Part shown: one piece after another, positions 49,791 through 64,000 of the stretch
Layout of the letters: each line of letters starts with the position of its first letter
How positions within the stretch are numbered: position 1 is the stretch's first letter
DNA from: Ruminococcus sp.
GTDB taxonomy: Bacteria > Bacillota > Clostridia > Oscillospirales > Ruminococcaceae
DNA length: 64,000 nucleotides
Direction of reading: 5' to 3'
Assembly: GCA_018376535.1 (NCBI GenBank)
Contig: JAHABC010000001.1
Location: forward strand, 186,066 to 250,065
Made by a program: the position numbers and the translations under genes
Notes under the pieces: generated by a model
Databases searched by the model: none
Told to the model about the DNA's origin: nothing
The model's input: the letters and a program-made list of their open reading frames with translations, nothing else

Positions 49791-49838
49791 TTTTCACAAA
49801 AAAAATTAAGTTAAAATATTTAAATCGGTTTAATTTCA

Positions 49839-49855
49839 GTTAGCAACTGCTAACC
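49839..49855. promoter_or_regulatory. Operator-like palindrome AGTTAGC-aact-GCTAACC (distal FAAL site)
   Basis: 7-4-7 inverted repeat with one mismatch, 66 bp upstream of the first copy. Confidence 0.45.
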
Positions 49856-50153: not shown

Positions 50154-50171
50154 AGTTAGCCAATACTAACT
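50154..50171. promoter_or_regulatory. Operator-like palindrome AGTTAGC-caat-ACTAACT (distal site for the ABC operon)
   Basis: 7-4-7 inverted repeat with one mismatch, 67 bp upstream of the proximal site. Confidence 0.45.
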
Positions 50172-50220
50172 AAATACAATATATTAATAACTATTTTTTA
50201 TAGATGTTATTGTATCTTGC

Positions 50221-50238
50221 AGTTAGCTAAAGCTAACT
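50221..50238. promoter_or_regulatory. Operator-like palindrome AGTTAGC-taaa-GCTAACT abutting the RBS of the ABC ATPase gene
   Basis: A perfect 7-4-7 inverted repeat immediately 5' of the AAAGGAGGAG RBS. Confidence 0.5.
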
Positions 50239-50255
50239 TAAAGGAGGAGTATATT

Positions 50256-50954
50256 TTGTATCTTAGTGTACAAAACTTAAAAAAGAGTTATGGCAATGGT
50301 TCTAGCCAAGTACAAGTTTTGAAGGGTATAAATACAGAGATTGAAAAAGGTCAAATGTGTGTTATACTAGGACCAAGTGGTTCAGGAAAATCCACTTTTT
50401 TAAACCTTATAGGTGGTCTTGATACCATAGACAGCGGAAATGTAATAATAGATGGCTTAAATATAGCGGGTATGGATAGTAATAAACTATCTAAGTACAG
50501 ACGTGACTATCTAGGATTTATATTTCAATTCTACAACTTAGTTCCAAATTTGACTATATATGAAAATATTCAAGTTTGCGAAAATCTAACTCAAAAAGCC
50601 TTGGATATAAACGAACTCTTAGATATATTAGGTCTAACTGAACATAAAAATAAGTTTCCATCACAACTATCTGGAGGTCAACAACAAAGATGTGCTATTG
50701 CTAGAGCTTTAGTTAAAAATCCTAAGTTACTACTATGCGATGAGCCTACTGGTGCTTTGGATTCTAAAACATCTAAAGAAATACTAGTCCTATTGGAAAA
50801 GGTTAATAAGATGTATAATACTACTATGCTAATAGTTACTCACAATACGGCTATTAAAGATATGGTTCATAAGGTTATCAAAATTAAAGACGGTCTTATT
50901 AGCAAAGATTATATAAATGATAATATTATATCGGCAAATGACATAGAATGGTAA
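50256..50954 (+). CDS. ABC transporter ATP-binding protein (MacB/FtsE-like, pairs with the FtsX-type permease)
   Basis: It has Walker A GPSGSGKST, signature LSGGQQQR and Walker B LLLCDEPTGALD. The TTG start at 50256 sits 6 nt after the AAAGGAGGAG RBS. The tabulated ORF start at 50217 is upstream of the RBS. Confidence 0.85.
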   Translation: MYLSVQNLKKSYGNGSSQVQVLKGINTEIEKGQMCVILGPSGSGKSTFLNLIGGLDTIDSGNVIIDGLNIAGMDSNKLSKYRRDYLGFIFQFYNLVPNLTIYENIQVCENLTQKALDINELLDILGLTEHKNKFPSQLSGGQQQRCAIARALVKNPKLLLCDEPTGALDSKTSKEILVLLEKVNKMYNTTMLIVTHNTAIKDMVHKVIKIKDGLISKDYINDNIISANDIEW

Positions 50955-50969
50955 CTTGAGGTATACATT

Positions 50970-53900
50970 ATGGTTTTGAATAAAAGAATTTTAAGAAATA
51001 TTAAGAAAAATTTCTTTCGATGGTTTGCACTTTTCTTATTGGTAGTTCTTGGAATTTATATGGTACTAAGTTTAATCGCAGCTGCCGAAACTGTAACTTA
51101 TGGCGTAAATACCTATGCCGATGAACAAAATCTTGAAGATGGTGAGTTTACAGTATTCGTTCCATTAACTAATGATAATTTAGAGTATATATCCGATAAG
51201 GGCTACTCCCTTGAGGAAAACTTCTACATAGATTTCGCTATGAACGACGATAGAAACTCTACACTTAGAATATTCAAAAATAGAGAAAATATAAACGTTC
51301 AAATAGCTAATGATGGCTCTATTGCATCAAAAGATAATGAGATACTATTAGAACATCACTACGCCGAACTACACGGATACAATATCGGTGATACTATATC
51401 TATTGCTGATTTGGATTTCAAAGTAGTAGGTGTTGGTGCTTCTCCAGACTATGACGACTGTAGACAAAATCTATCCGACGCAGGTACTGACCACAACGTC
51501 TTTGGTATGGCTTTTGTTACACCTAATGCCTACGATAAACTAAAAGCTACCGATAAGTATAAAAATACTGAAGAATATCTTTATAGTTACAAACTCGGAA
51601 AAGATAACTCCGATGACGACCTTAAAGAACTTCTTCAAGCTTTAGACTTCGATTTGACAGATATCAAAGATAAGTACGTCCGTGAATTGATTGACGATGT
51701 GGAAGATGAAAAAAATGACATCATTGATGGTGTAAATAAACTTCAAGACGCTAGTTATGAATTAAAAGACAATCTAAAAAAATTCTCCGATGGTACTAAA
51801 GAACTCAGCGACGGTGTTCAAACATTTAATGATAAAACTTCCGAATTTTTTGACGGTATAAATCAACTTTATGATGCTCTTAATACACTATCTTCTAACA
51901 ATTCTAAGTTACTAGATGGTGCTAATTCGGTATATGATGCACTATTTTCTATGGTAGAAAGTTCTCTTGCTGAAAATGATATAAAAGTAAATCTAACTAT
52001 AGATAACTATAAATCCGAATTAAATAAGGTTATGAACAATCCAAGTAAGATATCCGACAATACTAGAAAACAGATTAACGATTTAATATCTTCCTTAGAT
52101 AGTTATAATCAATTTTACACTGGCTTAAAAGAATATACTTCTGGTGTGGATAGCTTAACTGCTGGAGCATCTAGCTTGAGCAACGGAACTACTCAATTAA
52201 GTGATGGTGTTCATGTGTTATCAAGTGGATTGGAACGCATAGTAGCTAATAACAGTAGTATAAACAATGGAACATCAACCTTATTAGATAGTCTATTGGG
52301 AATGGTTCAAGGACAATTAAATCAATATGGTTTTGACGTTCAACTAACAAAAGATAACTATTCTGCAACTTTACAACAGATATATGACCAACTTTCAACA
52401 GTATCTCCTGAAAGTGCCGAAAGTATTATGAACTTAAAATCTTCCATTGATGGCGTTGTAACATTAAATAATGGTATAGCATCATATACTGGTGGAGTAT
52501 CCGAAGTATACAACGGAGTTAATAGTTTAAGTAGTGGTGTATCGGAATTAAGTAATGGTTGCAATACTCTCCTAGAGGGTTTACAGACTTTAAGTACATA
52601 CAATAGTAGTCTAGTGAGTGGTTCTCAAGATGTTTTTAACGCTCTATTGAGTACTGCACAAACTCAATTAAAAAGTGGTGGTATAGATGTTAATCTTACT
52701 ATAGATAACTATTCTTCCCAATTGAGCAACATTGCAAATAACATCGATACTTATACTAGCGATGCTTTAAAATCACAATTGACATCTGCAATTGAACAAC
52801 TAGACAGTTACGGAGAGTTCTACAATGGTATAGTAGATTACACCGACGCAGTAAACTCTATATATGATGGTGCTAAAACTCTAAATGACAGTTGCAAAGA
52901 TATTACTAATGCTATCGATGAGTTAGCAGACGGTTCTAATGAAATAGATGAAAACTCTATTAAACTATACGATGGCTCTGTTGAGTTCGCCGATGCTATT
53001 GATACTCTAGCTGACAATATATACGACATAGTGGACGAAGTTTTCACTATCGACATAGATAACTTAACTATGTTCCTAACTGCTGAAGATAACATTAGAA
53101 TAAAAGCCTCCATTGATGACGTAGCTATCAATAAGAGTGGTGGTCTAGTTGGAGGAGTAATATTAATAATCTTATTTGCATATGTAATATCGGTATTCAT
53201 AATACACGAAATTAATGACGAAAGTGCTGTAATAGGTGCATTATACTCCATGGGTGTAAGTAAAAAGACTCTTTTAATGCACTATATAACTCTACCTATG
53301 ATTATAGCCTTTGTAGGAGGTCTATTAGGAACTATTTTAGCATTTACTCCATTAGGTGTAGGAAATCAAATAAAGAGTGCTGTTACATACTACTCATTAC
53401 CAAACTTAGAGTATGTATATCCAATATATGCTTTAATCTATGGTATAGTGTTACCTCCAGTAATAGCCTTGATTGTAAACGTAATAGTAATAAATAGTGC
53501 ATTATCTCAAACACCTTTGAGTTTATTAAGAAAATCCAATAAGAATAAAATTCGTACTATAAACTTGAGTACTGGAAAGTTAAGTTTTACCAATCAATTT
53601 AGAGTTCGTCAGTTCGTTAGAGAACTTAGAACTAGTATAACACTATTCTTTGGAATGTTAGTAGCTCTACTACTATTGATGTTAGGTCTAACTTGTTATT
53701 TTTCAATAAATAACTATCAAGTTCAAAATAAACAAGATTTAAACTATAAATATCTATACTCCTTGAAGTACGAACTAGACAAGGAAGATATTCCTACAAA
53801 TGCCGTACAATGCTACTCCGAAAGCGTTAATAAAGAGATTTTAGGTCAAGATATGAAAGTAACTCTAATGGGAATAGATGGCAATAGCAAATATTTCAAC

Positions 53901-54629
53901 TTTGATGTCCCAGATAAAAAGAATACTGTCGTAGTAGGTAGTTCAATGGCTATAAAGTTCGGTTTAAAAGTTGGCGACGTTGTATACTTCAACGATGAAC
54001 TAAACGACAGAGTTTACTCCTTTGAAGTTGCTGATATAGTTCAATATTCAATTGGTTTGTATATGTTCATGGATATTGACAGAATGAGAGATTTATACAA
54101 TCAAGAGGACGATTATTTCAACGTATTAATATCCGATGAGGAACTAAATATCGATATAAACAGAGTGTACTCCACTATTAAGGATACCGATATTTTAAGT
54201 ATATCTGCTATATTTAAAGAAAGTATGAGTGGTATGATAACTATGTTATTAGTAATATCGGTAGTTATATTTGTAGTGGTAATGTATCTAATGATAAACA
54301 TTATGCTAGATAAATCGGCTAATAACATATCACTGATAAAAATATTCGGATATAATGACAAGGAAGTTAAAAACCTCTACCTTGATGGTAACTTCTTTGT
54401 AATATTAATATCATCATTGATAAACGTACCTATATCAAAGATGTGTATGAATGCTTTGTGGCCATCAATGGTATCCAATATGCAATGTGGCTTTGATACT
54501 TCAATACCTGCGTATATGTACATAGTAGTATTCCTAGTTATATTCATATGTTACTTTGTAGTAAGCCTTCTATTGATGCGTAAGCTAAGAGGAATATCCC
54601 CTGCTGAAGTTCTAAAGAACAGAGAATAA
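50970..54629 (+). CDS. Giant FtsX/MacB-family ABC permease (1219 aa) with two FtsX 4-TM modules and an approximately 700-aa ectodomain carrying three tandem, approximately 115-aa YhgE/Pip-like repeats
   Basis: An N-terminal TM segment is followed by an ectodomain with repeats (VNLTIDNYKSELNKV / VQLTKDNYSATLQQI / VNLTIDNYSSQLSNI). The first FtsX block spans about aa 745-870 and the second lies at the C-terminus. The gene is coupled to the upstream ATPase by a 15-nt gap. Confidence 0.75.
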   Translation: MVLNKRILRNIKKNFFRWFALFLLVVLGIYMVLSLIAAAETVTYGVNTYADEQNLEDGEFTVFVPLTNDNLEYISDKGYSLEENFYIDFAMNDDRNSTLRIFKNRENINVQIANDGSIASKDNEILLEHHYAELHGYNIGDTISIADLDFKVVGVGASPDYDDCRQNLSDAGTDHNVFGMAFVTPNAYDKLKATDKYKNTEEYLYSYKLGKDNSDDDLKELLQALDFDLTDIKDKYVRELIDDVEDEKNDIIDGVNKLQDASYELKDNLKKFSDGTKELSDGVQTFNDKTSEFFDGINQLYDALNTLSSNNSKLLDGANSVYDALFSMVESSLAENDIKVNLTIDNYKSELNKVMNNPSKISDNTRKQINDLISSLDSYNQFYTGLKEYTSGVDSLTAGASSLSNGTTQLSDGVHVLSSGLERIVANNSSINNGTSTLLDSLLGMVQGQLNQYGFDVQLTKDNYSATLQQIYDQLSTVSPESAESIMNLKSSIDGVVTLNNGIASYTGGVSEVYNGVNSLSSGVSELSNGCNTLLEGLQTLSTYNSSLVSGSQDVFNALLSTAQTQLKSGGIDVNLTIDNYSSQLSNIANNIDTYTSDALKSQLTSAIEQLDSYGEFYNGIVDYTDAVNSIYDGAKTLNDSCKDITNAIDELADGSNEIDENSIKLYDGSVEFADAIDTLADNIYDIVDEVFTIDIDNLTMFLTAEDNIRIKASIDDVAINKSGGLVGGVILIILFAYVISVFIIHEINDESAVIGALYSMGVSKKTLLMHYITLPMIIAFVGGLLGTILAFTPLGVGNQIKSAVTYYSLPNLEYVYPIYALIYGIVLPPVIALIVNVIVINSALSQTPLSLLRKSNKNKIRTINLSTGKLSFTNQFRVRQFVRELRTSITLFFGMLVALLLLMLGLTCYFSINNYQVQNKQDLNYKYLYSLKYELDKEDIPTNAVQCYSESVNKEILGQDMKVTLMGIDGNSKYFNFDVPDKKNTVVVGSSMAIKFGLKVGDVVYFNDELNDRVYSFEVADIVQYSIGLYMFMDIDRMRDLYNQEDDYFNVLISDEELNIDINRVYSTIKDTDILSISAIFKESMSGMITMLLVISVVIFVVVMYLMINIMLDKSANNISLIKIFGYNDKEVKNLYLDGNFFVILISSLINVPISKMCMNALWPSMVSNMQCGFDTSIPAYMYIVVFLVIFICYFVVSLLLMRKLRGISPAEVLKNRE

Positions 54630-54690: not shown

Positions 54691-54708
54691 TTAAACTTAT
54701 ATATAAAG

Positions 54709-54745
54709 AAATAACTCCAATATAATTACTGGAGTTATTTCTATA
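54709..54745 (-). terminator. Terminator of the convergent ABC half-transporter operon
   Basis: The sequence is aataactcca-atataattac-tggagttatt. The minus-strand transcript has a T-rich tail. Confidence 0.5.
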
Positions 54746-54773: not shown

Positions 54774-56540
54774 TTAATGTTTAACATTATCATATATGTT
54801 CCACTTTTCTACACGCTTACGAACGTTTATAAAGTCACGATATTTACCCTCTTGTTTAATAAGTTCCTCATGATTTCCTTGTTGAACTATTCTACCATCA
54901 TCGACTACTAGTATACAATCTGCATTTTCGATAGTAGCCAATCTATGAGCGATTGTAATTACTGTCTTACCCTTAGTAAGTTCCGAAATAGCCGATTGTA
55001 TTAAGTGTTCATTTTCAGGGTCTATACTAGCAGTAGCCTCATCTAGTATTATTATTGGAGCGTTTTTCAACATTGCTCTAGCGATTGAAATTCTTTGTTT
55101 TTCACCACCAGAAAGTGTTCCACCACCCTCACCGATTACTGTATCGTAACCATTAGGTAGCTTGGATATAAAATCATGACAACAAGCCTTTTTAGCTACT
55201 GCTATCATATCTTCTTCGGTAGCGTTAGGATTTCCAAAGCATATATTATTTCTTATAGTATCGTTGAATAGGTACACGTTTTGAAATACCATAGATATGT
55301 TAGATAGTAAACTATCACAAGTGAACTCTTTTAAATTGTGACCACCTATACTTATACTACCAGAGTTTACATCGTAAAAACGAGCAATTAGGTTACAGAT
55401 TGTGGATTTACCACTTCCAGATGGACCTACTATCGCAGTTGATGTATTTTCTGATATCTTAAAGTTTACATCTTTTAATATCTGTCTAGTATCGTAACCG
55501 AAGTTTACGTTTTTGAACTCTATATCAAAGTTAGATAGTTTTATATCTTTACCATCACCATCGATATAACTTTCATCATTCTTTAAGACATCTAATTGGT
55601 CCATAGCATCATCTATTACACCTAGAGTATGAGCACCATCGCTAATAGGTTCAAGACTAGCGAATATGTTCAATGAGAAGAATGCAAATATTAGAGTCAT
55701 TTTAATATCCATTTGACCACTTAGTCCCAAACACAAAGATGATATTACTAAACCTATAGATGCAACCTTTAAAGCTAGTAAGTGCATACAGTTTGGAAGT
55801 GTATAACCCCATTCGATTTTTAAACTTATATCTTTACTTTCTTTACAAGCACTCTTCATAGCGTTTATGGACGCTCCACCTTGACCAAAAGATTTTACTA
55901 TTGATAAACCTCTAGCATACTCTATAGTTGCGTTGGTAAGATTTCTTACTGCATCGGCAGACTTTGGAGCGTTCTCCTTACTATGTTTAGATACCACTAG
56001 CAAAAATACAAAAGATAATCCTACACCTAACACGGATATTAATGATACTAACGGATTAACAAAGAACAAACACAAGAATATACATAAAAAGTTTAGATAT
56101 CCACCGATAACGGTATCTAGCATACGAATACCCATATTTTCAAGGGTACTAAGTCCAGTAGTTATAGAGTTCAATATATGACCAGTATCCATCTTTTGAA
56201 AGTATCCTAAAGATACTCTTTTTAAAGCGTCACCAACGACTAAACGGTCACGAGCAACCAACTCATAACTGATAGTTTCTTGAAACTTTGCTCTAAAGTA
56301 GTCGAATACAAATCTAAGTATAACCAATCCTAATATGATTAGACAACTTAACCAAATCCATTTAGTATCGAATGTAGCTATACCTTGTTTATCTTCAATT
56401 AGCATACCAATGGTATACGCCGACACCATTATTGGCAAAGATGCAAACCATGTGGAAAAGAATGATAATACAAAACCTATGTATAATCTACCTTTAAAAT
56501 CTCCACACCAATCTATTATACGTTTTATAGTTTTAAACAT
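54774..56540 (-). CDS. ABC half-transporter (TMD-NBD fusion, type I exporter fold), subunit B of a heterodimer
   Basis: 588 aa. Six N-terminal TM segments are followed by Walker A GPSGSGKST, signature LSGGEKQR and Walker B ILDEATASID. Confidence 0.85.
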   Translation of the reverse strand: MFKTIKRIIDWCGDFKGRLYIGFVLSFFSTWFASLPIMVSAYTIGMLIEDKQGIATFDTKWIWLSCLIILGLVILRFVFDYFRAKFQETISYELVARDRLVVGDALKRVSLGYFQKMDTGHILNSITTGLSTLENMGIRMLDTVIGGYLNFLCIFLCLFFVNPLVSLISVLGVGLSFVFLLVVSKHSKENAPKSADAVRNLTNATIEYARGLSIVKSFGQGGASINAMKSACKESKDISLKIEWGYTLPNCMHLLALKVASIGLVISSLCLGLSGQMDIKMTLIFAFFSLNIFASLEPISDGAHTLGVIDDAMDQLDVLKNDESYIDGDGKDIKLSNFDIEFKNVNFGYDTRQILKDVNFKISENTSTAIVGPSGSGKSTICNLIARFYDVNSGSISIGGHNLKEFTCDSLLSNISMVFQNVYLFNDTIRNNICFGNPNATEEDMIAVAKKACCHDFISKLPNGYDTVIGEGGGTLSGGEKQRISIARAMLKNAPIIILDEATASIDPENEHLIQSAISELTKGKTVITIAHRLATIENADCILVVDDGRIVQQGNHEELIKQEGKYRDFINVRKRVEKWNIYDNVKH

Positions 56541-56549
56541 ATTAAATTA

Positions 56550-58322
56550 CTACTCCTTTCCCGATACAGATACAGCCCAATCTTTAGCACCAATATGAGC
56601 CTTCCACATTTGAGCGTATAATGGACACTTTTCAAGTAACTCTTGTTGTGTACCTTGAGATAGTATACTACCATCTTTAAGAACCACAATATTATCGGCA
56701 TTACTAATAGTTGAAAGTCTATGTGCAATAACTAATAAAGTCTTACCCTTAGTAAGTGCAGATATACTTTCTTGTATCTTATCTTCATTTTCTGGGTCAG
56801 TAAAGGCAGTAGCCTCATCTAGTATAACTATCGGAGCGTTTTTCAACATCATTCTAGCTATGGCAATACGTTGTTTTTCTCCTCCAGATAGACGCTTACC
56901 AGCCTCACCAGCAGGAGTATTATAACCATCAGGAAGTTTATTAATAAAGTCCTCACATTGAGCCAACTTAGCTACTCTATACACTTCCTCATCAGATGCC
57001 TTAGGATTTCCTAAACGTATATTTTCCAAAATAGAACATCTAAATAAGAAGTTATCTTGAGTAACGAAACTTACAGTATCTGCTAGTTGAGAAATAGGAA
57101 TGTTTTTGATATCCACGTCACCTATCTTTATAGTACCACCAGTAGTATCCCAAAATCTAGCGATTAGCTTTGCTACTGTAGATTTTCCTCCACCAGATGG
57201 ACCTACTAACGCTGTAAAACTACCTTGAGGTAGATTTAAACTTATATTATGTAATACATTATCTTTAGCGTCGCCACTATAAGAGAAAGTTACACTGTCT
57301 AATTTAACATCGTAGCCGTTTAACTTTGCAGATGTATTTGGTTCTGGTAATGATGGCATTTCTAAATACTCTTGTAGTTCATCTACGGTAAATTGAACTT
57401 GTCTTAAACTTTCTGAGAAAACTTCCAACTTTGCCAAAGAACCTATCATTGACATGGATAACATTACTCCTAAGGCTACTTGTGCTATTGAGATACTTCC
57501 GTTAGTACATAGATACAAACCCATCGGTAGAGTTCCTAAAAGTGTAGATGGAAATAGTGCAAAAGTCAACTTCATAGTAAACCATGTGGATTGCAACCAC
57601 TTAACTACAAATGTACGATAATCTGTAATAGCCTTTGCATACTTTTCATAAGATACTCCTGCTCTACCAAATGCTTTTATAACCTCAATACCTTCAATAT
57701 ATTCTACAATAGTACTGTTCATGTAGGCAGTTGCCTCGTTGTACTTATCGAAGTTTTGACCACTTATTTTGAAGGTAAGTCCCATGCACACTATCGATAG
57801 TGGCAAAGTAACTAACGATGCCAATGCAATCTTCCAATCTATAGTGCATAACAAGATAAAACTTATTATTGGTAATATAATATGTCCAGAACCCTCTGGA
57901 ACAAAGTGTGCTATTGGAGGTTCTATATTATCAATCTTATCGACAATAATGCCTTTTATCTCACCAATAGAATGTGATGTTACTTTTCCTAAAGGTGCGT
58001 GTAGAAATCTATCTACTACACGAAGTCTTAACTTTTCCAAGATTGTAAACGCCGCAGTATGTGAAATTCCTGTAGATAATCCAAATAATACCACTTTCAC
58101 CACATAACCTATTAAGCCTATCAATCCCCAAAAGATTATATCTTTACTAGATATACTACTTTCAGTATACTTTTCTATAATCTTGTATATAGAAAAGTAT
58201 GGTACCATTCCAGATAGTATACTAACTATAGATAGTATTACTGAAATCACTAAATCTTTTTTACTTTCACTAGCATAACTCATCAACACGTTAAACCAAG
58301 ATTTCTTTTCTTGTTTTTCCAA
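56550..58322 (-). CDS. ABC half-transporter (TMD-NBD fusion), subunit A of a heterodimer
   Basis: 590 aa. Six TM segments are followed by GPSGGGKST, LSGGEKQR and ILDEATAFTD. The downstream partner follows after a 9-nt gap. Confidence 0.85.
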   Translation of the reverse strand: MEKQEKKSWFNVLMSYASESKKDLVISVILSIVSILSGMVPYFSIYKIIEKYTESSISSKDIIFWGLIGLIGYVVKVVLFGLSTGISHTAAFTILEKLRLRVVDRFLHAPLGKVTSHSIGEIKGIIVDKIDNIEPPIAHFVPEGSGHIILPIISFILLCTIDWKIALASLVTLPLSIVCMGLTFKISGQNFDKYNEATAYMNSTIVEYIEGIEVIKAFGRAGVSYEKYAKAITDYRTFVVKWLQSTWFTMKLTFALFPSTLLGTLPMGLYLCTNGSISIAQVALGVMLSMSMIGSLAKLEVFSESLRQVQFTVDELQEYLEMPSLPEPNTSAKLNGYDVKLDSVTFSYSGDAKDNVLHNISLNLPQGSFTALVGPSGGGKSTVAKLIARFWDTTGGTIKIGDVDIKNIPISQLADTVSFVTQDNFLFRCSILENIRLGNPKASDEEVYRVAKLAQCEDFINKLPDGYNTPAGEAGKRLSGGEKQRIAIARMMLKNAPIVILDEATAFTDPENEDKIQESISALTKGKTLLVIAHRLSTISNADNIVVLKDGSILSQGTQQELLEKCPLYAQMWKAHIGAKDWAVSVSGKE

Positions 58323-58384: not shown

Positions 58385-59773
58385 TTAAAATATTTTAGTC
58401 AAGGTTAGAACCTTATCGCAAGTTAAGTTCATGAACTCTCTATCGTGGGATACTATTATTATAATATGTCCCTCACTAGCGAGTTTTTTTACTATCTTAC
58501 AGACTTCAATCATGTGTTTATAATCCAAGCCACTGGTAGGCTCATCAAATATAAGAACTCTTTTTTTAGATAGCAATGCTAAAGCAATAGCTAACCTTTG
58601 TTTTTGCCCACCAGATAAAGCCATTGGGTGACTTTCTTTAAAAGGTAACAAATCGCATTGAGATAGAATATCATCAATGTTAATATTTTCGTCATCAACA
58701 GATTGCAAACATTCATTTTCAACGCTATCGTAAAAAAGTTGATGGTTTACATCTTGCATTACACAAAAACTTACTTTCTGTCGATTTTTATGATTAAGTA
58801 CAACACTATCTAAAGTAATAGTTCCAGATTTTTGTTTTATAAGTCCACATAGACAGCGTATCAAAGTAGATTTACCTGAGCCATTCTGTCCAGTGATTGC
58901 TAAAACTTCTCCTTGATTGACACTAAAAGAGATATCTTTTAAAATAGTAGCATCTTTTTTGTAGCCATAACAAAGATTTTCCACCTTAAAACTTTGATTA
59001 CTATTAAATGTCGCTTTTGGAATGTTTAAACTTTCATATAGTAAGGTACGCAATCCAAGACTAATTCTGTAGTCATTAGATATCTTTTTAAAACTTTCGC
59101 CCGAATACTCCGAAACGATTTTACCATCTTTTAGATATATAACTCTATCAACCAAATCCATTAAGAAGTATAATCTATGTTCAGCAATTATGATAGTATT
59201 TCCATTACTTTTTAAGAACTCTATCTGTTTTCTTAAATTTTCTATAGCTTTTTCATCTAAGTTAGCAGTAGGTTCGTCTAAGACGTAGATATCTGGGTTC
59301 ATAGTATATATACTTGCAAAAGCGATGGTTTGCTTTTCACCTCCGGACAGTGAAAAGATATTCTTATCTATTAGATGCTTTATGTTTAAACTCTTGATAG
59401 TTCTATCTAAGCGATAGTTTATATCTATTGGTGATACCCCCGCATTTTCTAAACCAAAGACTATCTCATCGGTAGTATTTAGATTAAAAAACTGGCTCTT
59501 AGGATTTTGAAACACTGAACCTACTTTTTTAGAAATTTCATACAGTTCAGTATTAGCGACTACCATATCTTCAATATATACTTTACCATCTAAAAAGCAA
59601 TCGTTAATAAAGTGAGGAATAAGTCCATTGATAGTCTTAGTTATAGTAGTCTTTCCACAACCACTTGCACCACATAACAGAACACATTCACCACTTTTAA
59701 TATTAAGGTCTATATTATATAAATCCATGCGATTTTTATTGTAACCAAAAGATAGATTATCTATTTTAATCAT
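58385..59773 (-). CDS. ECF-transporter energising ATPase, fused duplicated EcfA-EcfA' type
   Basis: 462 aa with two complete NBDs (GASGCGKTT...LSGGEKQ...VLDEPTANLD and GQNGSGKST...LSGGQKQR...IFDEPTSGLD). Confidence 0.8.
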   Translation of the reverse strand: MIKIDNLSFGYNKNRMDLYNIDLNIKSGECVLLCGASGCGKTTITKTINGLIPHFINDCFLDGKVYIEDMVVANTELYEISKKVGSVFQNPKSQFFNLNTTDEIVFGLENAGVSPIDINYRLDRTIKSLNIKHLIDKNIFSLSGGEKQTIAFASIYTMNPDIYVLDEPTANLDEKAIENLRKQIEFLKSNGNTIIIAEHRLYFLMDLVDRVIYLKDGKIVSEYSGESFKKISNDYRISLGLRTLLYESLNIPKATFNSNQSFKVENLCYGYKKDATILKDISFSVNQGEVLAITGQNGSGKSTLIRCLCGLIKQKSGTITLDSVVLNHKNRQKVSFCVMQDVNHQLFYDSVENECLQSVDDENINIDDILSQCDLLPFKESHPMALSGGQKQRLAIALALLSKKRVLIFDEPTSGLDYKHMIEVCKIVKKLASEGHIIIIVSHDREFMNLTCDKVLTLTKIF

Positions 59774-59788
59774 ATATAAATAACTCCT

Positions 59789-60475
59789 TTACTTAAAAAA
59801 AATCAAAGCCATGATAAAAATAACTGCAAAAATTGAGATAATAATATCATATGGCTTAATTTTTAATTGGGTTATGGTCGTCTTAGGTGCAGGATTTTCT
59901 ATACCTCTAGTGACTGCTGCTGAAGATAGTTCCTCAGAAGTTTCTATAGCAGATACCATTAAAGGTACAATATAAGCCTCTACCTTTTTTATTCCGTGAA
60001 TGTTTCTAAGACGCATAGCATCTTTAATGTAACTAGCCTCCTCACGAATAGCTGGGAAGTATCTAATAGTTACGGTAATTGGAATAATAATCTTTTGAGA
60101 TATATGTAGCTTTCTTAAAGCCTCAGTGAACTGTTTAAGCGATACCGTCTTTATAATAAGATTTCCTACCATTAAACACGGAAAAACTTTTCTAGCATAA
60201 GTCACTATAAGAGAAAAACTCATTGATATAGCTTTGGGAGCGTATACTACTATGTACTTCTGTAATAGCAACATTATGACAAAAAACAGCAACCACTTTA
60301 TCCCAGATTTTTTAACTCCACTTATAAAATACAATATACCCACAAAAAGTATATATCCTACTTCAAGATATATACTACTTTGAGCAAATGCTATAATATT
60401 AGATGTTATTAATAATAAAAGTTGTATTCTAGGGTCTATAAGCAGTTTAGATTTATTTTGTTCTAAAGTATTCAT
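59789..60475 (-). CDS. ecfT: ECF transporter T (transmembrane coupling) component, EcfT/CbiQ family
   Basis: 228 aa with five TM segments and the conserved C-terminal Ala-Arg-Gly-like coupling region (AAVTRGIENP). Confidence 0.7.
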   Translation of the reverse strand: MNTLEQNKSKLLIDPRIQLLLLITSNIIAFAQSSIYLEVGYILFVGILYFISGVKKSGIKWLLFFVIMLLLQKYIVVYAPKAISMSFSLIVTYARKVFPCLMVGNLIIKTVSLKQFTEALRKLHISQKIIIPITVTIRYFPAIREEASYIKDAMRLRNIHGIKKVEAYIVPLMVSAIETSEELSSAAVTRGIENPAPKTTITQLKIKPYDIIISIFAVIFIMALIFFK

Positions 60476-60477: not shown

Positions 60478-61074
60478 TTATAACATACCAGCCTTCTTGA
60501 AGTGTTTATTAAACATTGCTTTAGTTATAAACAATCCTATAATAGAACATATTATTGGTGCTACAAATAGAACTATCAACATTGGTGTAGATGAAAAACC
60601 TTCTAAGGTTGCAATATAGTCAGCAGACATACCTTGTTCCTTTAGTTGGTTAAAAAAGCTATCGTGTATTAGCCATACTGGAAGTGGTGAACCTACCATT
60701 CCTAATGAAAATAATACAAATGATACAGCATTTCCTTTAAAAGTATTGTATTTAAACAGATATCTAACTAATTCAGCCAAAAGACAACTTATCAAGAAAC
60801 TTACAAGAATTATTACAGTAAACTGTCCAGTAACGAAGTATATCAAGCCAGTAATAAAGCCCATTATTAGAACTGCTCCAAACTTTTGAACCTTTGTACA
60901 CATCAACATATATGGAATACCTGATAATAATGATATAAGTGCAGGAAGTAGTATCCAAACTATAGGGTGCAAACCACTTAATATCATAAATATGAAGTTT
61001 ATTACAAAGTATATAGCCGAAAATATACCTATTGTAATTAAATCTTTGCCTTTTAGAGTTTTATTATTATCCAT
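60478..61074 (-). CDS. Putative ECF-transporter substrate-specific (S) component, a small 6-TM membrane protein
   Basis: 198 aa and highly hydrophobic. It lies immediately upstream of EcfT with a 2-nt gap, in the standard S-T-A gene order of a dedicated ECF module. An AGGAGG RBS is present. Confidence 0.55.
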   Translation of the reverse strand: MDNNKTLKGKDLITIGIFSAIYFVINFIFMILSGLHPIVWILLPALISLLSGIPYMLMCTKVQKFGAVLIMGFITGLIYFVTGQFTVIILVSFLISCLLAELVRYLFKYNTFKGNAVSFVLFSLGMVGSPLPVWLIHDSFFNQLKEQGMSADYIATLEGFSSTPMLIVLFVAPIICSIIGLFITKAMFNKHFKKAGML

Positions 61075-61115
61075 AAAATAGCCTCCTAAGAATATTATAC
61101 AATAAACACTCTAAA

Positions 61116-61132
61116 GGTTAGCAGAGCTAACC
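61116..61132. promoter_or_regulatory. Palindrome GGTTAGC-aga-GCTAACC (same half-site as the FAAL/ABC operators, with a 3-nt spacer) between the NRPS stop and the ECF S gene
   Basis: The extended form AAGGTTAGCAGAGCTAACCTT is a perfect 9-3-9 inverted repeat, about 45 bp upstream of the S-component start. It could alternatively act as a weak terminator hairpin for the NRPS gene. Confidence 0.45.
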
Positions 61133-61155
61133 TTTTAGAATATCTATTATTTGGA

Positions 61156-64000
61156 TTAAAATTGTTCTATTAATTCAGCCAATTTCTTAGCATTAGTAGG
61201 GTCTTCAACACAAGAATAGTGGTTTCCATCAGCATAAAAGACCTCAAAATCTCCTAAGCAGATATCTCGCCAGAACTCCATACTTCTTTCGTTGCTATAG
61301 AATGAGTTATACGATTCTTTAGCATTAACATAACGAACATCGCCAACGTAAGCATCAATATCCGATGTTATACAGTGTGTAGTTTGAGCAAATATCTCAA
61401 AGTAGCTTTTTAAGATATCTGGAGATATCTTTTCATTAGATTTTTTATTAACAATATCGGCATACTTTTGGAAACGCTCATCTTTAGACATTGTTGAAAG
61501 TTTTTCTAATGGAACGCTCATATAAGATAGTTCACTATCAGATTTAATCTTATCAAGAACATCTTCTGGAATACAACCGAACTTTTCAGTTATCTTCATA
61601 AAGTCGAAAGTATCGCCTACTATACCCAACTCATTGAAATCCACATTAAAGTTAGGCATGAACATCAATTCCATGAATAGTTCGTTGTTAATCTTCCAAG
61701 GAATAGTTTGAGCATCTATTAGAACCATATCCACGATTTCAACATCTGCCTCTTGAAGTCTGTTAGCAGTTTGAGTGGATAACCAAGCACCAAAAGAATG
61801 TCCAATCAATTGAACTTGTTTGTAACCAGTTTCTAATATCAACTTAGCATAGTCATCAACTAGAGTTTGTAAGCAAGTATCCTTATTCAATTGACAATAC
61901 TGTTTAATATCTCTAATGGATATAGTCATAACCTTACCTTTATTTTGATGTATCATTTCAGTTATCAAGTTAGACATATTGTTTACAGTACCCAATCCCG
62001 AATGGAACACCACTCTAAGAGGGCCATCACCAGCATCATAGAACTTAACTTCTCCAATACTGTTATTAGAACTATTATCATTAGAAGTATCTTGTACACA
62101 AGATTTATCTTCTATAAATCTTGATAGTTCAATAATAGTAGGGTGATTTAATATAAATCTAAGTAACTCATCAAAAGGAATGTTTTTAGCAATACTTTCT
62201 CTAAGTTTACCAGTTATTTGAGCCATTATTAAAGAGTCTGCACCATATTCAAATAGATTATCATTTAATTGAATACCTCTAATACCAGTATTTTCACATA
62301 TCGAAAGAATTTCTTTTTGAAGTTCTGTATAGTTTTGATTATCTACACTTACAGACTTAACACTTACACTATTAGATATCTTATTTTTAGCAAGTTCAAG
62401 TAACTGTTTTCTATCTATTTTGCTATTAGCAGTTATAGGTAGATTGTCTAACATTGAAAAACTAGAAGGCATCATGTAAGTTGGAAGATACTCTTTAATA
62501 TAGTCTTTAAGTTCGGAACTTTCAAGATTATACTTGTTAGTCTTGAACTGTTTTATAAATAGTTCCAAGCCGAAACTCTTTAAAGGACTATCATTTTTAG
62601 GGAATACTACAGTAGATGCGTTATTATCTACAATATTTAAAGCGTTCAACCAATCATTAGAGTCTAAAAAGGCTTTATTCTGTCTTAAAGAGTCCTCTGG
62701 TTTGGTCATCAAGAAACCTTGAGAAGCTAATATCCAAACTTCTTCCTTAACTGGTTCGGTGAATAAGAAGAATCCATTAGGTTTAATCAACTTTTTGATG
62801 TTGTTCAAACTATTTAAGATATCTTTAGCATTTTCTAATACACCTACTGCTATGATTATATCATAAGAGTTATCAGAAAAACCTTGTGCATATATATCTT
62901 CATCAATGTTAAGTGGATATACACTTACTCGATTATTATTTTCAAACTTCTTTTTAGCGTTAGGAATAAAGAACTTATTAATATCTGTAACATGATAAGT
63001 ATAGTTGCTATCACCAAGAGTTCTCATAACCTGTTCCGATGTTGCACAAGTACCAGCACCAACTTCAAGGATATTAACTTTTCTATCTTGTGATTTAACA
63101 AATCTATTAACAAACTCGCAAATGCAGATGTTTAAATATTTAGACATCTTATTATTTACATACATATCCAATACTATATCATTTTTACCATCTGGATATA
63201 ATAGTTTAATAGGGTCTTCTTGTTTGCATAGTAGCTTGTTCAATCTAGTGGAACTCTTATATAGGTAGTCATAGAATATATCTGCACCCATCTCCGATAG
63301 CCAATTAGATTTTAAATCTGCCCATAGAGAGTTAATATCTTCCATAGATACGTTACTATACTTAGCATTAATCTTGTAAGAGTCGTTACTTTTGGTTATA
63401 TAATTGTTATTAACTAATAGTTTAACCCAATATTCAACTAACCATTTATATTGATTATCAATTGAACCACACTCTAAGAGTTGTTGCATAGTAAACTCAT
63501 CACTATTGATACAATTCTTAATTGCAAAAATCATAGATTGCATAATAGCATTATCTTTAACTAATACGGCATCATCAAGCACTTTTTTAGTTAGATGGTT
63601 CATAGTCAATTCTGCGTTTGCATTAAGATTTTCATACAATCTTTCAGACTTTTCTAAAATTGAACTTCTTTCTTCTTTAGAATTAACCTTAGTTTCGTAG
63701 TAGCACAATAAAGATTTTTCATCATTACTTTCATAGTATACAACGGCACTATTTTCAACCTTAGGATTTTCGTCTATAGCGTGTTCAATTTCGCCCAACT
63801 CTATACGATGTCCATTAAGTTTTATTTGATGGTCTGCTCTACCTAAAAATTCAATTTCGCCATTAGAATGATATTTTCCTAAATCACCAGTTTTGTACAT
63901 CATTTCGCCAGTAGATTTATCTTTAATAAATTGAGCGTTAGTCTTTTCGATATCGTTGTAATATCCAGTAGCTAGACCCTTACCCAAGATATATATTTCA
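61156..64000 (-). CDS. NRPS terminal module, 5'-truncated at the window edge: ...A(with embedded methyltransferase)-PCP-TE (PchF-like)
   Basis: The frame is open to the window end (EIYILGKGLATGYY, the A6 motif). The tabulated M is an internal TTG. A-domain motifs are YKTGDLGKY (A7) and GRADHQIKLNGHRIELGEIE (A8). An approximately 400-aa insert with the SAM motif ILEVGAGTCATS follows, then NLPITANSKIDRKQL (A10). The PCP reads FEYGADSL. The TE has GHSFGAW (GxSxG). Confidence 0.85.
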   Translation of the reverse strand, partial: EIYILGKGLATGYYNDIEKTNAQFIKDKSTGEMMYKTGDLGKYHSNGEIEFLGRADHQIKLNGHRIELGEIEHAIDENPKVENSAVVYYESNDEKSLLCYYETKVNSKEERSSILEKSERLYENLNANAELTMNHLTKKVLDDAVLVKDNAIMQSMIFAIKNCINSDEFTMQQLLECGSIDNQYKWLVEYWVKLLVNNNYITKSNDSYKINAKYSNVSMEDINSLWADLKSNWLSEMGADIFYDYLYKSSTRLNKLLCKQEDPIKLLYPDGKNDIVLDMYVNNKMSKYLNICICEFVNRFVKSQDRKVNILEVGAGTCATSEQVMRTLGDSNYTYHVTDINKFFIPNAKKKFENNNRVSVYPLNIDEDIYAQGFSDNSYDIIIAVGVLENAKDILNSLNNIKKLIKPNGFFLFTEPVKEEVWILASQGFLMTKPEDSLRQNKAFLDSNDWLNALNIVDNNASTVVFPKNDSPLKSFGLELFIKQFKTNKYNLESSELKDYIKEYLPTYMMPSSFSMLDNLPITANSKIDRKQLLELAKNKISNSVSVKSVSVDNQNYTELQKEILSICENTGIRGIQLNDNLFEYGADSLIMAQITGKLRESIAKNIPFDELLRFILNHPTIIELSRFIEDKSCVQDTSNDNSSNNSIGEVKFYDAGDGPLRVVFHSGLGTVNNMSNLITEMIHQNKGKVMTISIRDIKQYCQLNKDTCLQTLVDDYAKLILETGYKQVQLIGHSFGAWLSTQTANRLQEADVEIVDMVLIDAQTIPWKINNELFMELMFMPNFNVDFNELGIVGDTFDFMKITEKFGCIPEDVLDKIKSDSELSYMSVPLEKLSTMSKDERFQKYADIVNKKSNEKISPDILKSYFEIFAQTTHCITSDIDAYVGDVRYVNAKESYNSFYSNERSMEFWRDICLGDFEVFYADGNHYSCVEDPTNAKKLAELIEQF

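What the first reader, a model, noticed from the sequence alone, without database searches (positions are those of the whole stretch)
61156..64000. Non-colinear, split PchF-like terminal module with a methyltransferase inserted between A8 and A10, transcribed with transporters rather than with the rest of the assembly line
The TE-containing last module is encoded upstream of, and in the same operon as, the ECF and ABC genes. It is separated by about 11 kb and an oppositely oriented operon from the FAAL/megasynthase genes that must act before it. The A domain is interrupted by an approximately 400-aa SAM-dependent MT (ILEVGAGTCATS). This MT-interrupted A domain is also seen in PchF (thiazolidine N-methylation) and HMWP1. 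The N-terminal part of the protein, and whether it carries its own Cy/C domain, lies outside the window.
Basis: partly seen in the sequence, partly recalled or inferred. Interest (0 to 1): 0.65.

Follow-up and report, generated by a model that had tools for sequence, protein, structure and literature searches.

The report
PchF-like last module of gut-bacterial metallophore pathway
The window ends inside the last enzyme of a pyochelin/equibactin-type assembly line from an uncultured human-gut Clostridia bacterium; the enzyme itself is an ordinary, widespread type, but the complete fatty-acid-primed, three-thiazoline cluster it belongs to has no characterised product.

Summary
Window 61156-64000 (-) encodes the C-terminal 947 aa of an 1805-aa NRPS. 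Its domains are docking domain, Cy, Cys-specific A domain, PCP and TE. A 391-aa SAM methyltransferase interrupts the A domain between motifs A8 and A9.

Near-identical metagenome contigs supplied the missing upstream DNA. It holds an A-PCP protein, a saccharopine-dehydrogenase-like protein and a thiazolinyl reductase, then housekeeping genes.

Orthologous clusters in Clostridium butyricum, C. beijerinckii and several metagenomic relatives place this terminal gene directly upstream of the FAAL and megasynthase genes. Both NRPS operons, and the divergent ABC operon between them, carry GTTAG-N6-CTAAC. This is the core of the experimentally defined EqbA (DtxR-like) operator of equibactin. I conclude it is one metal-regulated pathway.

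Three corrections:
- The terminal module is intact. The split module is the penultimate one (Cy on the megasynthase, A-PCP in trans).
- Late-genes-first order and co-transcription with transporters are normal for this family.
- HMWP1's methyltransferase is not inside an A domain.

The methyltransferase groups with PchF-type enzymes, not C-methyltransferases. Verdict: new variant of a known kind, moderate interest.

The parts
61156..64000 (-). C-terminal 947 aa of the 1805-aa terminal NRPS: end of A core, MT insert, A9-A10, PCP, TE. The gene starts about 2.57 kb beyond the window end.
   Evidence: Open frame; Pfam; full gene on 99%-identical contigs L001-L008
63784..63843 (-). A-domain core motif A8 (GRADHQIKLNGHRIELGEIE), just before the insertion point
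62518..63690 (-). 391-aa SAM-dependent methyltransferase domain inserted in the A subdomain (full-length residues 962-1352)
   Evidence: Homologues without the MT align as two pieces flanking it. Pfam MT families. PDB best hit CurJ C-MT, E 6.5e-22. Homologous to the PchF MT and to reductase-fused MTs.
63037..63072 (-). SAM-binding motif I, ILEVGAGTCATS, intact
62821..62859 (-). IIIAVGVLENAKD: the position of the catalytic His of C-methyltransferases (NVLHAT) is Glu here; it is Asn in PchF
   Evidence: Alignment with CurJ, DisA, HMWP1 MT1/MT2 and PchF
62401..62487 (-). A9 (LPTYMMPS) and A10 (NSKIDRKQL, catalytic Lys), which resume after the insert
62113..62301 (-). PCP domain (GADSL phosphopantetheine-attachment serine)
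   Evidence: Pfam PP-binding, E 1e-8
61159..62037 (-). Thioesterase domain (GHSFG at 61786-61803; candidate His in DGNHYS at 61213-61230)
   Evidence: Pfam Thioesterase, 28.8 bits against a cutoff of 26.4. Aligns with PchF to residue 1789.
61115..61133 (.). Palindrome AGGTTAGC-AGA-GCTAACCT, an operator-like variant with a spacer one base shorter. It lies between the NRPS stop and the ECF-S start and is followed on the coding strand by TGTATAAT.
   Evidence: The N6 motif occupies the equivalent position in relative L017.
60478..61074 (-). MptD/Trep_Strep-family ECF transporter S component
   Evidence: PF09605, E 1.6e-60. TIGR02185, 137 bits against a cutoff of 76.
59789..60475 (-). ECF T component (CbiQ family)
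58385..59773 (-). Fused ECF A-A' ATPase (two ABC_tran domains)
54774..58322 (-). Two fused permease-ATPase ABC genes (590 and 588 aa), the PchHI/YbtPQ/EqbKL type
   Evidence: 1:1 orthologues in the C. butyricum cluster, 52% and 47% identity.
54707..54742 (-). Terminator-like hairpin closing the late operon
50217..54629 (+). Divergent ABC ATPase plus 1219-aa FtsX/MacB-like permease. It carries the same operator motif in its promoter, so it is probably part of the regulon.
49774..50237 (.). Divergent control region with four copies of A-GTTAG-N6-CTAAC-T (49774, 49839, 50155, 50222) and promoter-like sites on both strands (49953..49925 minus; 50038..50066 plus)
   Evidence: Six matches in the window against 0.07 expected. 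Promoters. The motif equals the core of the EqbA operator.
47654..49756 (-). FAAL-ACP loading protein (700 aa)
   Evidence: Pfam AMP-binding plus PP-binding. Best NCBIfam hits are fatty-acyl-AMP ligases, all below their cutoffs.
39963..47651 (-). 2562-aa megasynthase KS-AT-ACP-Cy1-A(Cys)-PCP-[internal TubC_N dock]-Cy2. It ends in a Cy domain with no A or PCP of its own.
   Evidence: Pfam; Cy motifs; A code DLYNISMIWK
39158..39994 (-). Type II thioesterase, the last gene of the cluster (the PEPCK housekeeping gene follows)

Best explanation
The fragment is the 3' half of the gene for the last module of a single hybrid PKS/NRPS assembly line. The cluster spans about 32 kb, from window 39158 to about 7.6 kb beyond the window end. 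The organism is an uncultured human-gut Oscillospiraceae / 'Ruminococcus sp.' bacterium.

Proposed order of events:
1. FAAL-ACP activates and loads a fatty acid.
2. KS-AT-ACP adds one malonyl unit. There is no KR, DH or ER domain, so a beta-keto group remains.
3. Cy1-A-PCP adds the first cysteine and forms the first thiazoline.
4. Cy2, at the end of the megasynthase, condenses the chain onto a cysteine carried by the free-standing 950-aa A-PCP. That protein is the equivalent of PchE without its ArCP-Cy part, and its A domain holds a degenerate MT-like insert.
5. The A-PCP's conserved C-terminal tail (...EEGEL) docks to the TubC_N-type domain of the 1805-aa terminal protein.
6. Cy3-A(Cys)-PCP forms the third ring. 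The adjacent Irp3/PchG-type reductase reduces it to a thiazolidine.
7. The embedded methyltransferase N-methylates the thiazolidine, as in PchF.
8. The TE hydrolyses the product.

The product is proposed to be a lipid-tailed thiazoline/thiazolidine carboxylate metallophore. It would be taken up by the ECF (EqbHIJ-like) system and the YbtPQ/PchHI-like ABC pair. The whole cluster would be repressed by an EqbA/DtxR-type metal-dependent regulator acting on GTTAG-N6-CTAAC operators.

Shown here: domain composition, gene content, orthology and synteny with relatives, Cys specificity codes, and operator occurrence. Inferred: substrate identities, order of protein hand-offs, N- versus C-methylation, metal binding, and direction of transport.
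For: Gene content and boundary:
- The full protein is TubC_N-Cy-A(MT)-PCP-TE, 1805 aa.
- Upstream lie an Irp3-like reductase (TIGR01761, 235 bits against a cutoff of 189), a Sacchrp_dh-like protein and the 950-aa A-PCP. Beyond them come Smr, TsaD, PolA and Dus, i.e. the cluster boundary with no aryl or other starter.

Domain-level evidence:
- All three condensation-type domains are Cy type (D/ExxxxDxxS, VVFTS, SQTPQV..D).
- All three A domains carry Cys-type codes. The terminal one is identical to PchF.
- The megasynthase ends in Cy2 without an A or PCP. In relative L010 the equivalent is a stand-alone dock-Cy followed by the A-PCP gene.
- A-PCP orthologues share the extreme C-terminal motif (M/I/V)E(E/I)GE(L/I).

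Comparative evidence:
- C. butyricum has 1:1 full-length orthologues of every cluster gene except the MacB-like pair. They lie in one co-directional array: A-PCP, SDH, reductase-MT, terminal NRPS, FAAL, megasynthase, TEII, ECF S/T/AA', ABC, ABC.
- The terminal NRPS gene is directly upstream of the FAAL gene in C. beijerinckii L009 and in L011, and directly upstream of the megasynthase gene in L016.

Regulation:
- GTTAG-N6-CTAAC occurs four times in the FAAL/ABC divergent promoter region and twice upstream of the A-PCP gene (expected 0.07 and 0.03).
- It also occurs in intergenic positions in L010, L011, L016 and L017.
- It equals the core of the EMSA-defined, Fe2+/Zn2+-responsive EqbA operator (PMC3672683).

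Methyltransferase:
- It clusters with PchF and with reductase-fused MTs, and it lacks the C-MT catalytic His.
- In PchF, methylation follows PchG reduction (PMC10510592).

Equibactin precedent: the ECF-type EqbHIJ genes are needed for uptake, and the SDH-family EqbM is needed for production.
Against: - No product, transcript or biochemical data exist for this cluster or, as far as four library searches show, for its Clostridium orthologues.
- No DtxR/EqbA-like regulator gene lies within the roughly 85 kb examined.
- The MT position equivalent to the C-MT His is Glu here, not the Asn of PchF.
- Relatives L010 and the K. pneumoniae plasmid carry both an embedded Glu-type MT and a reductase-fused Asn-type MT. 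The embedded type may therefore perform a different methylation.
- The MT tree is a small neighbour-joining tree without bootstrap support. PchF is represented by an uncharacterised B. cenocepacia orthologue.
- The insert in the 950-aa A domain gives only sub-threshold MT or PchE-E similarity.
- Promoter and terminator calls are consensus matches whose overall counts do not exceed shuffles.
- The KS-AT-ACP module could act iteratively.
- The role of the SDH-like protein is unknown.
- The MacB-like pair and the lipid tail would also fit a secreted antibiotic.
Confidence: 0.72

Rival explanations
1. Two unrelated pathways. The late operon (A-PCP, reductases, PchF-like module, ECF/ABC transporters) makes or completes an aryl-capped pyochelin/equibactin-like siderophore on its own. 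The FAAL/megasynthase/TEII operon makes a separate lipopeptide.
For: The late cassette is modular. In L017, one of the closest relatives (52% identity), SDH, reductase, Term(MT) and ECF genes sit next to DHB-type genes (isochorismate synthase, isochorismatase, short-chain dehydrogenase) and a DtxR-like repressor, with no FAAL or megasynthase in the 17.7 kb seen. The two operons in the window have separate promoters and are separated by an opposite-strand operon.
Against: - There is no aryl-AMP ligase, ArCP, salicylate/DHB synthase or any C/Cy domain that could feed the 950-aa A-PCP anywhere in the late operon or in the 10 kb upstream, which is housekeeping.
- The megasynthase ends in an orphan Cy domain that needs an A-PCP partner.
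- Full 1:1 orthology exists with the contiguous C. butyricum cluster.
- Both operons share the operator motif.
Confidence: 0.06
2. The embedded methyltransferase is a C-methyltransferase, like HMWP1 MT2, which alpha-methylates the last thiazoline. Alternatively it methylates another atom. Either way it would not be a PchF-type thiazolidine N-methyltransferase.
For: The best solved-structure matches are PKS C-MTs: CurJ (E 6.5e-22), DisA, PsoF, AprA MT2 and LovB. Identity to HMWP1 MT2 (30% over core columns) is no lower than to PchF (25%). Relatives L010 and the K. pneumoniae plasmid carry this embedded type in addition to a reductase-fused PchF-like MT, which suggests non-redundant roles.
Against: - The catalytic His conserved in all five C-MTs aligned (CurJ, DisA, PsoF, HMWP1 MT1 and MT2) is replaced by Glu.
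- The domain shares the SQ(G/A)(F/L)(M/L)M motif with PchF and the reductase-fused MTs, and branches with them in the tree.
- In the FAAL-type clusters with the relevant genes in view (window, C. butyricum, C. beijerinckii, L011) there is one MT each, either embedded or fused to the thiazoline reductase. This argues for one conserved function coupled to reduction.
Confidence: 0.2
3. The cluster product is not a metallophore but a secreted bioactive lipopeptide (an antibiotic or signalling molecule). The ABC and MacB-like systems would then serve export or immunity.
For: The cluster has a FAAL-derived lipid tail. A MacB/FtsX-type ABC pair is co-regulated with it. The fused permease-ATPase ABC proteins score best against exporter families. 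No chelator was detected chemically even for equibactin (PMC3672683).
Against: - The operator equals that of the Fe2+/Zn2+-responsive EqbA.
- A DtxR-like repressor is encoded in relative L017.
- The MptD-type ECF system is homologous in kind to EqbHIJ, which is needed for eqb-dependent iron accumulation.
- Gram-negative versions of the same terminal NRPS plus ABC pair are followed by TonB-dependent siderophore receptors.
- The thiazoline/thiazolidine-carboxylate end is the pyochelin chelating unit.
Confidence: 0.15

Closest known systems
PchF and the pchEFGHI operon (pyochelin; Pseudomonas aeruginosa and Burkholderia)
   Same: - Same architecture, Cy-A(MT)-PCP-TE, with the MT embedded in the A subdomain.
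- Colinear over the whole length with the B. cenocepacia orthologue.
- Identical Cys code.
- Adjacent PchG/Irp3-type reductase.
- Followed on the same strand by two fused ABC transporter genes.
- The preceding A-PCP carries an MT-like insert at the position of the PchE epimerase (PMC10510592).
   Different: - Only 28% identity.
- The MT has Glu where PchF has Asn.
- The upstream module is split (Cy on the megasynthase, A-PCP free-standing).
- There are three Cys modules instead of two.
- The starter is FAAL plus a PKS module instead of salicylate.
- An ECF importer replaces a TonB receptor.
- An extra saccharopine-dehydrogenase-like gene is present.
Equibactin locus eqbA-N (Streptococcus equi ICESe2) and Clostridium kluyveri NRPS cluster 1
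   Same: - Firmicute thiazoline-type NRPS cluster with a thiazoline reductase, an SDH-family protein (EqbM), an ECF-type importer (EqbHIJ) and a fused ABC pair (EqbKL).
- The operator core GTTAG-N6-CTAAC is identical to the EqbA-bound palindrome.
   Different: - Equibactin starts from salicylate (EqbD) and uses HMWP2/HMWP1-like synthetases.
- Its MT is fused to the reductase.
- Its repressor gene eqbA is in the locus. Here no regulator gene was found nearby and the starter is FAAL/PKS.
- EqbH-L sequences were not compared directly.
Uncharacterised orthologous clusters in Clostridium butyricum (pNPD4_2, NPD4_RS01825-01890) and C. beijerinckii (LN908213)
   Same: The same gene set with 1:1 full-length orthologues at 30-52% identity, including the 2600-aa KS-AT-ACP-Cy-A-PCP-dock-Cy megasynthase. 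The same late-genes-before-early-genes order.
   Different: - There the MT is fused to the C-terminus of the reductase and the terminal A domain is uninterrupted.
- Transporters lie after TEII rather than between the terminal NRPS and the FAAL gene.
- PPTase and AraC-type regulator genes are present.
- There is no MacB-like pair.
- The A-PCP has an extra N-terminal region of about 200 aa.
HMWP1 (yersiniabactin; irp1)
   Same: The Cy3, MT2, PCP3 and TE regions align. A thiazoline reductase (YbtU) is encoded next to it.
   Different: - HMWP1 has no A domain around MT2.
- It has a large N-terminal PKS part.
- MT2 keeps the C-MT catalytic His (NVLHDA) and branches with the C-MTs.
Micacocidin / massiliachelin pathways (FAAL-primed yersiniabactin-like siderophores)
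   Same: A FAAL-activated fatty acid and a type I PKS module start a thiazoline/thiazolidine siderophore assembly line (PMC6604713 and PMC10291242 abstracts).
   Different: From my own knowledge, not tested here: those systems use an iterative PKS with a KR domain to build a 6-alkylsalicylate. Here the PKS module has KS-AT-ACP only, so an aliphatic beta-ketoacyl starter is expected.

Membership tests
PchF-type terminal NRPS module, Cy-A(MT)-PCP-TE | Heterocyclisation (Cy) domain in place of a standard C domain | tested here: met
   EFIIADWTS (a conservative D-to-E change at the first Asp, shared with the L010 and C. beijerinckii homologues), PYVFTS and SQTPQVFIDCQV. Best PDB hits are Cy-A proteins: BmdB, FmoA3 and PchE. 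This part lies outside the window, on 99%-identical contigs.
PchF-type terminal NRPS module, Cy-A(MT)-PCP-TE | Cysteine-specific A domain | tested here: met
   Specificity code DLYNLSLIWK, identical to B. cenocepacia PchF. The GrsA ruler reproduced DAWTIAAICK.
PchF-type terminal NRPS module, Cy-A(MT)-PCP-TE | SAM-dependent MT embedded in the A subdomain between A8 and A9, with an intact SAM motif | tested here: met
   Insert at residues 962-1352, defined by homologues lacking it. Motif order is A8, MT, A9, A10. LEVGAGT is conserved. Homologous to the PchF MT, E 5e-20.
PchF-type terminal NRPS module, Cy-A(MT)-PCP-TE | C-terminal PCP and TE; full-length colinearity with PchF | tested here: met
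   A single BLASTP alignment covers residues 11-1789 against 6-1812 of the B. cenocepacia PchF orthologue. GADSL and GHSFG are present. The Pfam TE hit is just above its cutoff.
PchF-type terminal NRPS module, Cy-A(MT)-PCP-TE | Partner thiazolinyl reductase (PchG/Irp3/YbtU family) encoded next to it | tested here: met
   The 362-aa gene immediately upstream scores 235.5 bits on TIGR01761 against a cutoff of 188.8. It also hits PF21390 Irp3-like_C.
PchF-type terminal NRPS module, Cy-A(MT)-PCP-TE | N-methylation of the PCP-bound thiazolidine after reduction | not testable with these tools
   Indirect only. The C-MT catalytic His is absent and the domain branches with PchF and the reductase-fused MTs.
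HMWP1-type terminal module (Cy-MT-PCP-TE, C-methylating) | MT lies between Cy and PCP with no A domain; the protein carries an N-terminal PKS part | tested here: not met
   A complete A domain flanks the MT here. Only the Cy and MT-PCP-TE regions align with HMWP1. There is no PKS part.
HMWP1-type terminal module (Cy-MT-PCP-TE, C-methylating) | C-MT catalytic His (NV[LIV]H[AD]) | tested here: not met
   GVLENAK here, against NVLHDA in HMWP1 MT2 and NVIHAT in MT1.
Equibactin-type (eqb) metallophore locus | Thiazoline reductase plus SDH-family protein plus ECF-type importer plus fused ABC pair | tested here: met
   TIGR01761 reductase; PF03435 protein; Trep_Strep/MptD S component, CbiQ T component and A-A' ATPase; two fused permease-ATPase ABC genes. 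Matched by family only. Eqb protein sequences were not compared.
Equibactin-type (eqb) metallophore locus | EqbA operator palindrome in the promoters | tested here: met
   The GTTAG-N6-CTAAC core of AACTATTATTGTTAGATGTATCTAACAATAATAGTT (PMC3672683) is found six times in the promoter regions of three transcription units, where far fewer than one is expected.
Equibactin-type (eqb) metallophore locus | DtxR-like repressor gene and a salicylate-activating starter enzyme in the locus | tested here: not met
   tblastn with the L017 DtxR-like protein finds nothing in the window or in L001-L008. The starter is FAAL-ACP plus a PKS module.

The most novel reading that the evidence does not exclude
A common human-gut strict anaerobe (Oscillospiraceae), together with C. 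butyricum and C. beijerinckii, makes a so-far undescribed lipid-tailed tris-thiazoline/N-methyl-thiazolidine metallophore. In it a FAAL/PKS-derived beta-ketoacyl (enol) unit replaces the salicylate oxygen donor of pyochelin. The metallophore is recovered through an ECF transporter, and the cluster is controlled by an EqbA-type metal repressor whose operator is conserved across these Clostridia clusters.
Probability: 0.4. Interest if true: 0.6.

Novelty: new variant of a known kind. Interest (0 to 1): 0.4.

Why it matters
The terminal module itself is routine. More than 100 full-length homologues with the same architecture exist in Firmicutes and other phyla, and some are annotated as pyochelin synthetase.

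What is worth keeping is the whole cluster.
- It is a conserved, uncharacterised Clostridia gene-cluster family that joins a fatty-acyl/PKS starter to a pyochelin-like end.
- One of its proteins occurs with an identical sequence in 432 index blocks of public assemblies, including human-gut metagenomes.
- It has cultivable orthologous hosts (C. butyricum, C. beijerinckii) in which it could be tested.

If the product is a metallophore, it would be a handle on how strict gut anaerobes compete for iron or zinc. The conserved GTTAG-N6-CTAAC operator gives a simple sequence signature for finding further members of this regulon.

The cluster also illustrates two things about module evolution. A methyltransferase can sit either inside the A domain or fused to the reductase that prepares its substrate. 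A Cy | A-PCP module can be split between operons.

Tried and rejected
1. Two scans of the GTDB species-representative genomes found nothing. One used peptides of the A-PCP. The other used a wobble-tolerant DNA pattern from the ECF-S gene. The organism name therefore rests on NCBI MAG annotations: 'Ruminococcus sp.' and Oscillospiraceae bacterium.
I walked upstream through a homology search instead.
4. A TetR regulator (as in L010) or a DtxR-like regulator (as in L017) near the cluster was searched by tblastn. Neither was found in the window or the flanking loci.
5. An Rfam scan of the whole window gave no riboswitch or other RNA family.
6. The insert of the 950-aa A domain was compared with the PchE epimerase and with MT structures. 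Only sub-threshold matches resulted (E 0.007-0.7), so the comparison is inconclusive at sequence level.
7. Five literature searches for a characterised product of this Clostridium/Ruminococcus cluster type found none in the held library.
8. My first ORF choices for PchG and PchI in the high-GC Burkholderia locus were spurious frames. tblastn corrected them.

Full report
**Observation.**
On the minus strand the frame is open from the window edge (63999) to a stop at 61156. The 'TTG start' given by the ORF lister is an edge artefact.

Pfam finds the end of an A domain, a class I SAM methyltransferase, a PP-binding domain and a thioesterase. The core motifs run in this order:
- A7 and A8 (63784-63843)
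- SAM motif I, ILEVGAGTCATS (63037-63072)
- A9 (62464-62487) and A10 (62401-62427)
- PCP GADSL
- TE GHSFG

Homologues that lack the insert align in two pieces, residues 11-961 and 1353-1802. This sets the insert at 391 aa (window 62518-63690), between A8 and A9.

**What lies beyond the window.**
The ECF S-component protein of the window occurs with an identical sequence in 432 index blocks of public assemblies, including human-gut metagenomes. Six long contigs are 99.0-99.5% identical to window 50466/50478-64000.

They show the complete protein of 1805 aa: TubC_N-type docking domain, Cy, A(MT), PCP, TE. Upstream on the same strand are:
- a thiazolinyl reductase (TIGR01761, above its cutoff)
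- a saccharopine-dehydrogenase-like protein
- a 950-aa stand-alone A-PCP

Walking further shows that the A-PCP gene is preceded only by housekeeping genes (Smr, TsaD, PolA, Dus). There is no second multi-module NRPS and no aryl starter. NCBI MAG records name the organism 'Ruminococcus sp.' or Oscillospiraceae bacterium.

**Anatomy of the whole line.**
All three condensation-type domains are heterocyclisation domains:
- Cy1 (DFMIADAMS) and Cy2 (DCILLDGWS) on the 2562-aa megasynthase
- Cy3 (EFIIADWTS) on the terminal protein
- each also has the VVFTS and SQTPQV..D motifs

All three A domains have cysteine-type codes. The terminal one (DLYNLSLIWK) is identical to B. cenocepacia PchF.

The megasynthase is KS-AT-ACP-Cy1-A-PCP-(internal TubC_N)-Cy2. 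It ends in a Cy domain with no A or PCP. The missing A-PCP is the 950-aa protein. Its A domain carries a degenerate MT-like insert at the position where PchE carries its MT-like epimerase (PMC10510592).

In relative L010 the equivalent Cy is a stand-alone dock-Cy protein, encoded directly before the A-PCP gene. A-PCP orthologues share an extreme C-terminal (M/I/V)E(E/I)GE(L/I) motif. This is a plausible docking tail for the TubC_N domain of the terminal protein.

So the terminal module is intact. The split module is the penultimate one.

**One pathway or two.**
C. butyricum pNPD4_2 carries full-length 1:1 orthologues (30-52% identity) of every cluster gene except the MacB-like pair. They form one co-directional array: A-PCP, SDH, reductase-MT, terminal NRPS, FAAL-ACP, megasynthase, TEII, ECF S/T/AA', ABC, ABC.

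The terminal NRPS gene lies directly upstream of the FAAL gene in C. beijerinckii L009 and in L011. It lies directly upstream of the megasynthase gene in L016. The 'late genes first' order is therefore ancestral to the family. In the window's species the transporter block, plus an opposite-strand MacB-like pair, sits between the two halves.

L017, one of the closest relatives (52% identity), combines the same late cassette and ECF genes with DHB-type starter genes and a DtxR-like repressor. The cassette is thus modular, which is the main argument for the two-pathway rival. In the window's genome, however, no alternative starter is present.

**Regulation.**
I noticed a palindrome, A-GTTAG-N6-CTAAC-T. 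It occurs:
- four times in the 460-bp divergent region between the FAAL and ABC-ATPase genes: 49774, 49839, 50155 and 50222 (six matches in the window against 0.07 expected)
- twice upstream of the A-PCP gene, against 0.03 expected
- as a variant with a spacer one base shorter, between the terminal NRPS and the ECF-S gene
- in intergenic positions next to cluster genes in L010, L011, L016 and L017

It matches the core of the palindrome that EqbA needs for binding to the eqbB promoter. EqbA is the DtxR-like repressor of equibactin, and its binding is enhanced by Fe2+ and Zn2+ (AACTATTATTGTTAGATGTATCTAACAATAATAGTT; PMC3672683).

This links both NRPS operons and the MacB-like operon in one predicted metal-responsive regulon. 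No regulator gene was found nearby.

Promoter-like sites flank the operators. Terminator-like hairpins close the late operon (54742..54707) and the MacB-like operon. These are consensus matches only.

**The methyltransferase.**
Among solved structures it is closest to PKS C-methyltransferases (CurJ, E 6.5e-22). It is also homologous to the PchF MT (E 5e-20) and, more closely, to MT domains fused to Irp3-like reductases in relatives (E 1e-33 to 1e-50).

Alignment with CurJ, DisA, HMWP1 MT1 and MT2 (taken from a Klebsiella plasmid irp1) and PchF gives three results:
- SAM motif I is intact.
- The catalytic His of the C-MTs (NVLHAT) is Asn in PchF and the reductase-fused MTs, and Glu here (GVLENAK).
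- The domain branches with the PchF group.

In the FAAL-type clusters with the relevant genes in view (window, C. butyricum, C. beijerinckii, L011) there is one MT each, either embedded or fused to the reductase. That fits a function coupled to thiazoline reduction, as established for PchF (PMC10510592).

Caveats: the tree is small and has no bootstrap support. L010 and a K. pneumoniae plasmid cluster carry both MT types.

**Comparison with known systems.**
The terminal protein passes every sequence-level test for the PchF type and fails those for the HMWP1 type. The locus shares its reductase, SDH-like protein, ECF importer, ABC pair and operator with the equibactin locus. In that system EqbHIJ is needed for uptake and EqbM for production. 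The locus differs in its starter and in lacking a local repressor gene.

The NRPS-reductase-ABC pair gene order is also that of the Burkholderia pyochelin locus. Co-transcription with transporters is therefore typical, not odd.

The architecture dock-Cy-A(MT)-PCP-TE is very common. I found no paper in the held library describing the product of this Clostridia cluster family.

**Verdict.**

The module is an ordinary member of a known family. The cluster as a whole is a new variant of the pyochelin/equibactin kind, with a FAAL/PKS starter, three Cys rings, a split Cy | A-PCP module and a relocated MT. Its product is uncharacterised.

Interest is moderate (0.4).

Noticed in passing
window 49774-49789, 49839-49854, 50155-50170, 50222-50237; variant at 61115-61133; L007 9840-9855 and 9943-9958; also L010 22428 and 22451, L011 586, L016 569, L017 7750: A conserved palindrome, A-GTTAG-N6-CTAAC-T, lies in the promoter or RBS-proximal regions of all transcription units of the cluster and of distant relatives. 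Its core is identical to the EMSA-defined EqbA (DtxR-like) operator of the equibactin locus. No regulator gene was found in the roughly 85 kb examined.
   Followed up: yes
window 41184-41199 and 44496-44511: Two further matches to GTTAG-N6-CTAAC lie inside the megasynthase coding sequence. They could be chance matches or internal regulatory sites.
   Followed up: no
window 41286-41423 (megasynthase residues 2077-2122): A TubC_N-type docking domain sits inside the megasynthase, between the PCP and the final Cy domain and after an acidic linker (DDDDNF...). It looks like the scar of a gene fusion of a once separate dock-Cy protein; such a protein exists as a stand-alone 500-aa gene in L010.
   Followed up: partly
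window 50217-54629 (+): An ABC ATPase and an unusually long (1219-aa) FtsX/MacB-type permease with coiled-coil-like regions are inserted in the opposite orientation in the middle of the cluster. The pair has no counterpart in the C. butyricum orthologous cluster but carries the cluster's operator motif. The listed TTG start at 50217 is probably too far upstream, because an operator and an AAGGAGG RBS follow it; the gene is called as 232 aa on the metagenome contigs.
   Followed up: partly
L009 14619-16910, L011 5033-7258, L015 15097-17391, compared with window 62518-63690: The homologous methyltransferase domain is either embedded in the terminal A domain (window, L010, L016, L017) or fused to the C-terminus of the Irp3-like reductase (C. 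beijerinckii, C. butyricum, L011). L010 and the K. pneumoniae plasmid have both forms.
   Followed up: partly
L013 (K. pneumoniae plasmid pINF237_01-VP, CP032834.1, 63668-87688): An IncFIB Klebsiella plasmid carries a siderophore-like cluster. Its 1803-aa terminal NRPS is 36% identical over the full length to the gut-bacterial protein. It is followed by two ABC genes and a TonB-dependent receptor, and it is distinct from the yersiniabactin genes.
   Followed up: no
L017 11762-15459: One of the closest relatives of the terminal NRPS (52% identity) sits with DHB-type starter genes (short-chain dehydrogenase, isochorismate synthase, isochorismatase) and a 136-aa DtxR-like repressor. This shows that the late cassette is reused with different starters.
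   Followed up: partly
L007 / window-equivalent about 68.8-71.6 kb (950-aa A-PCP): The stand-alone A-PCP lacks the N-terminal region of about 200 aa that is present in the C. butyricum and C. beijerinckii orthologues (1172 and 1175 aa). That region has no Pfam hit and its role is unknown.
   Followed up: no
whole window: The Rfam scan at gathering thresholds found no RNA family in the 64 kb. Neither the A-PCP nor the ECF-S pattern was found in the GTDB species-representative genomes. The cluster is therefore absent from that collection, or present only in a form the exact patterns missed.
   Followed up: partly
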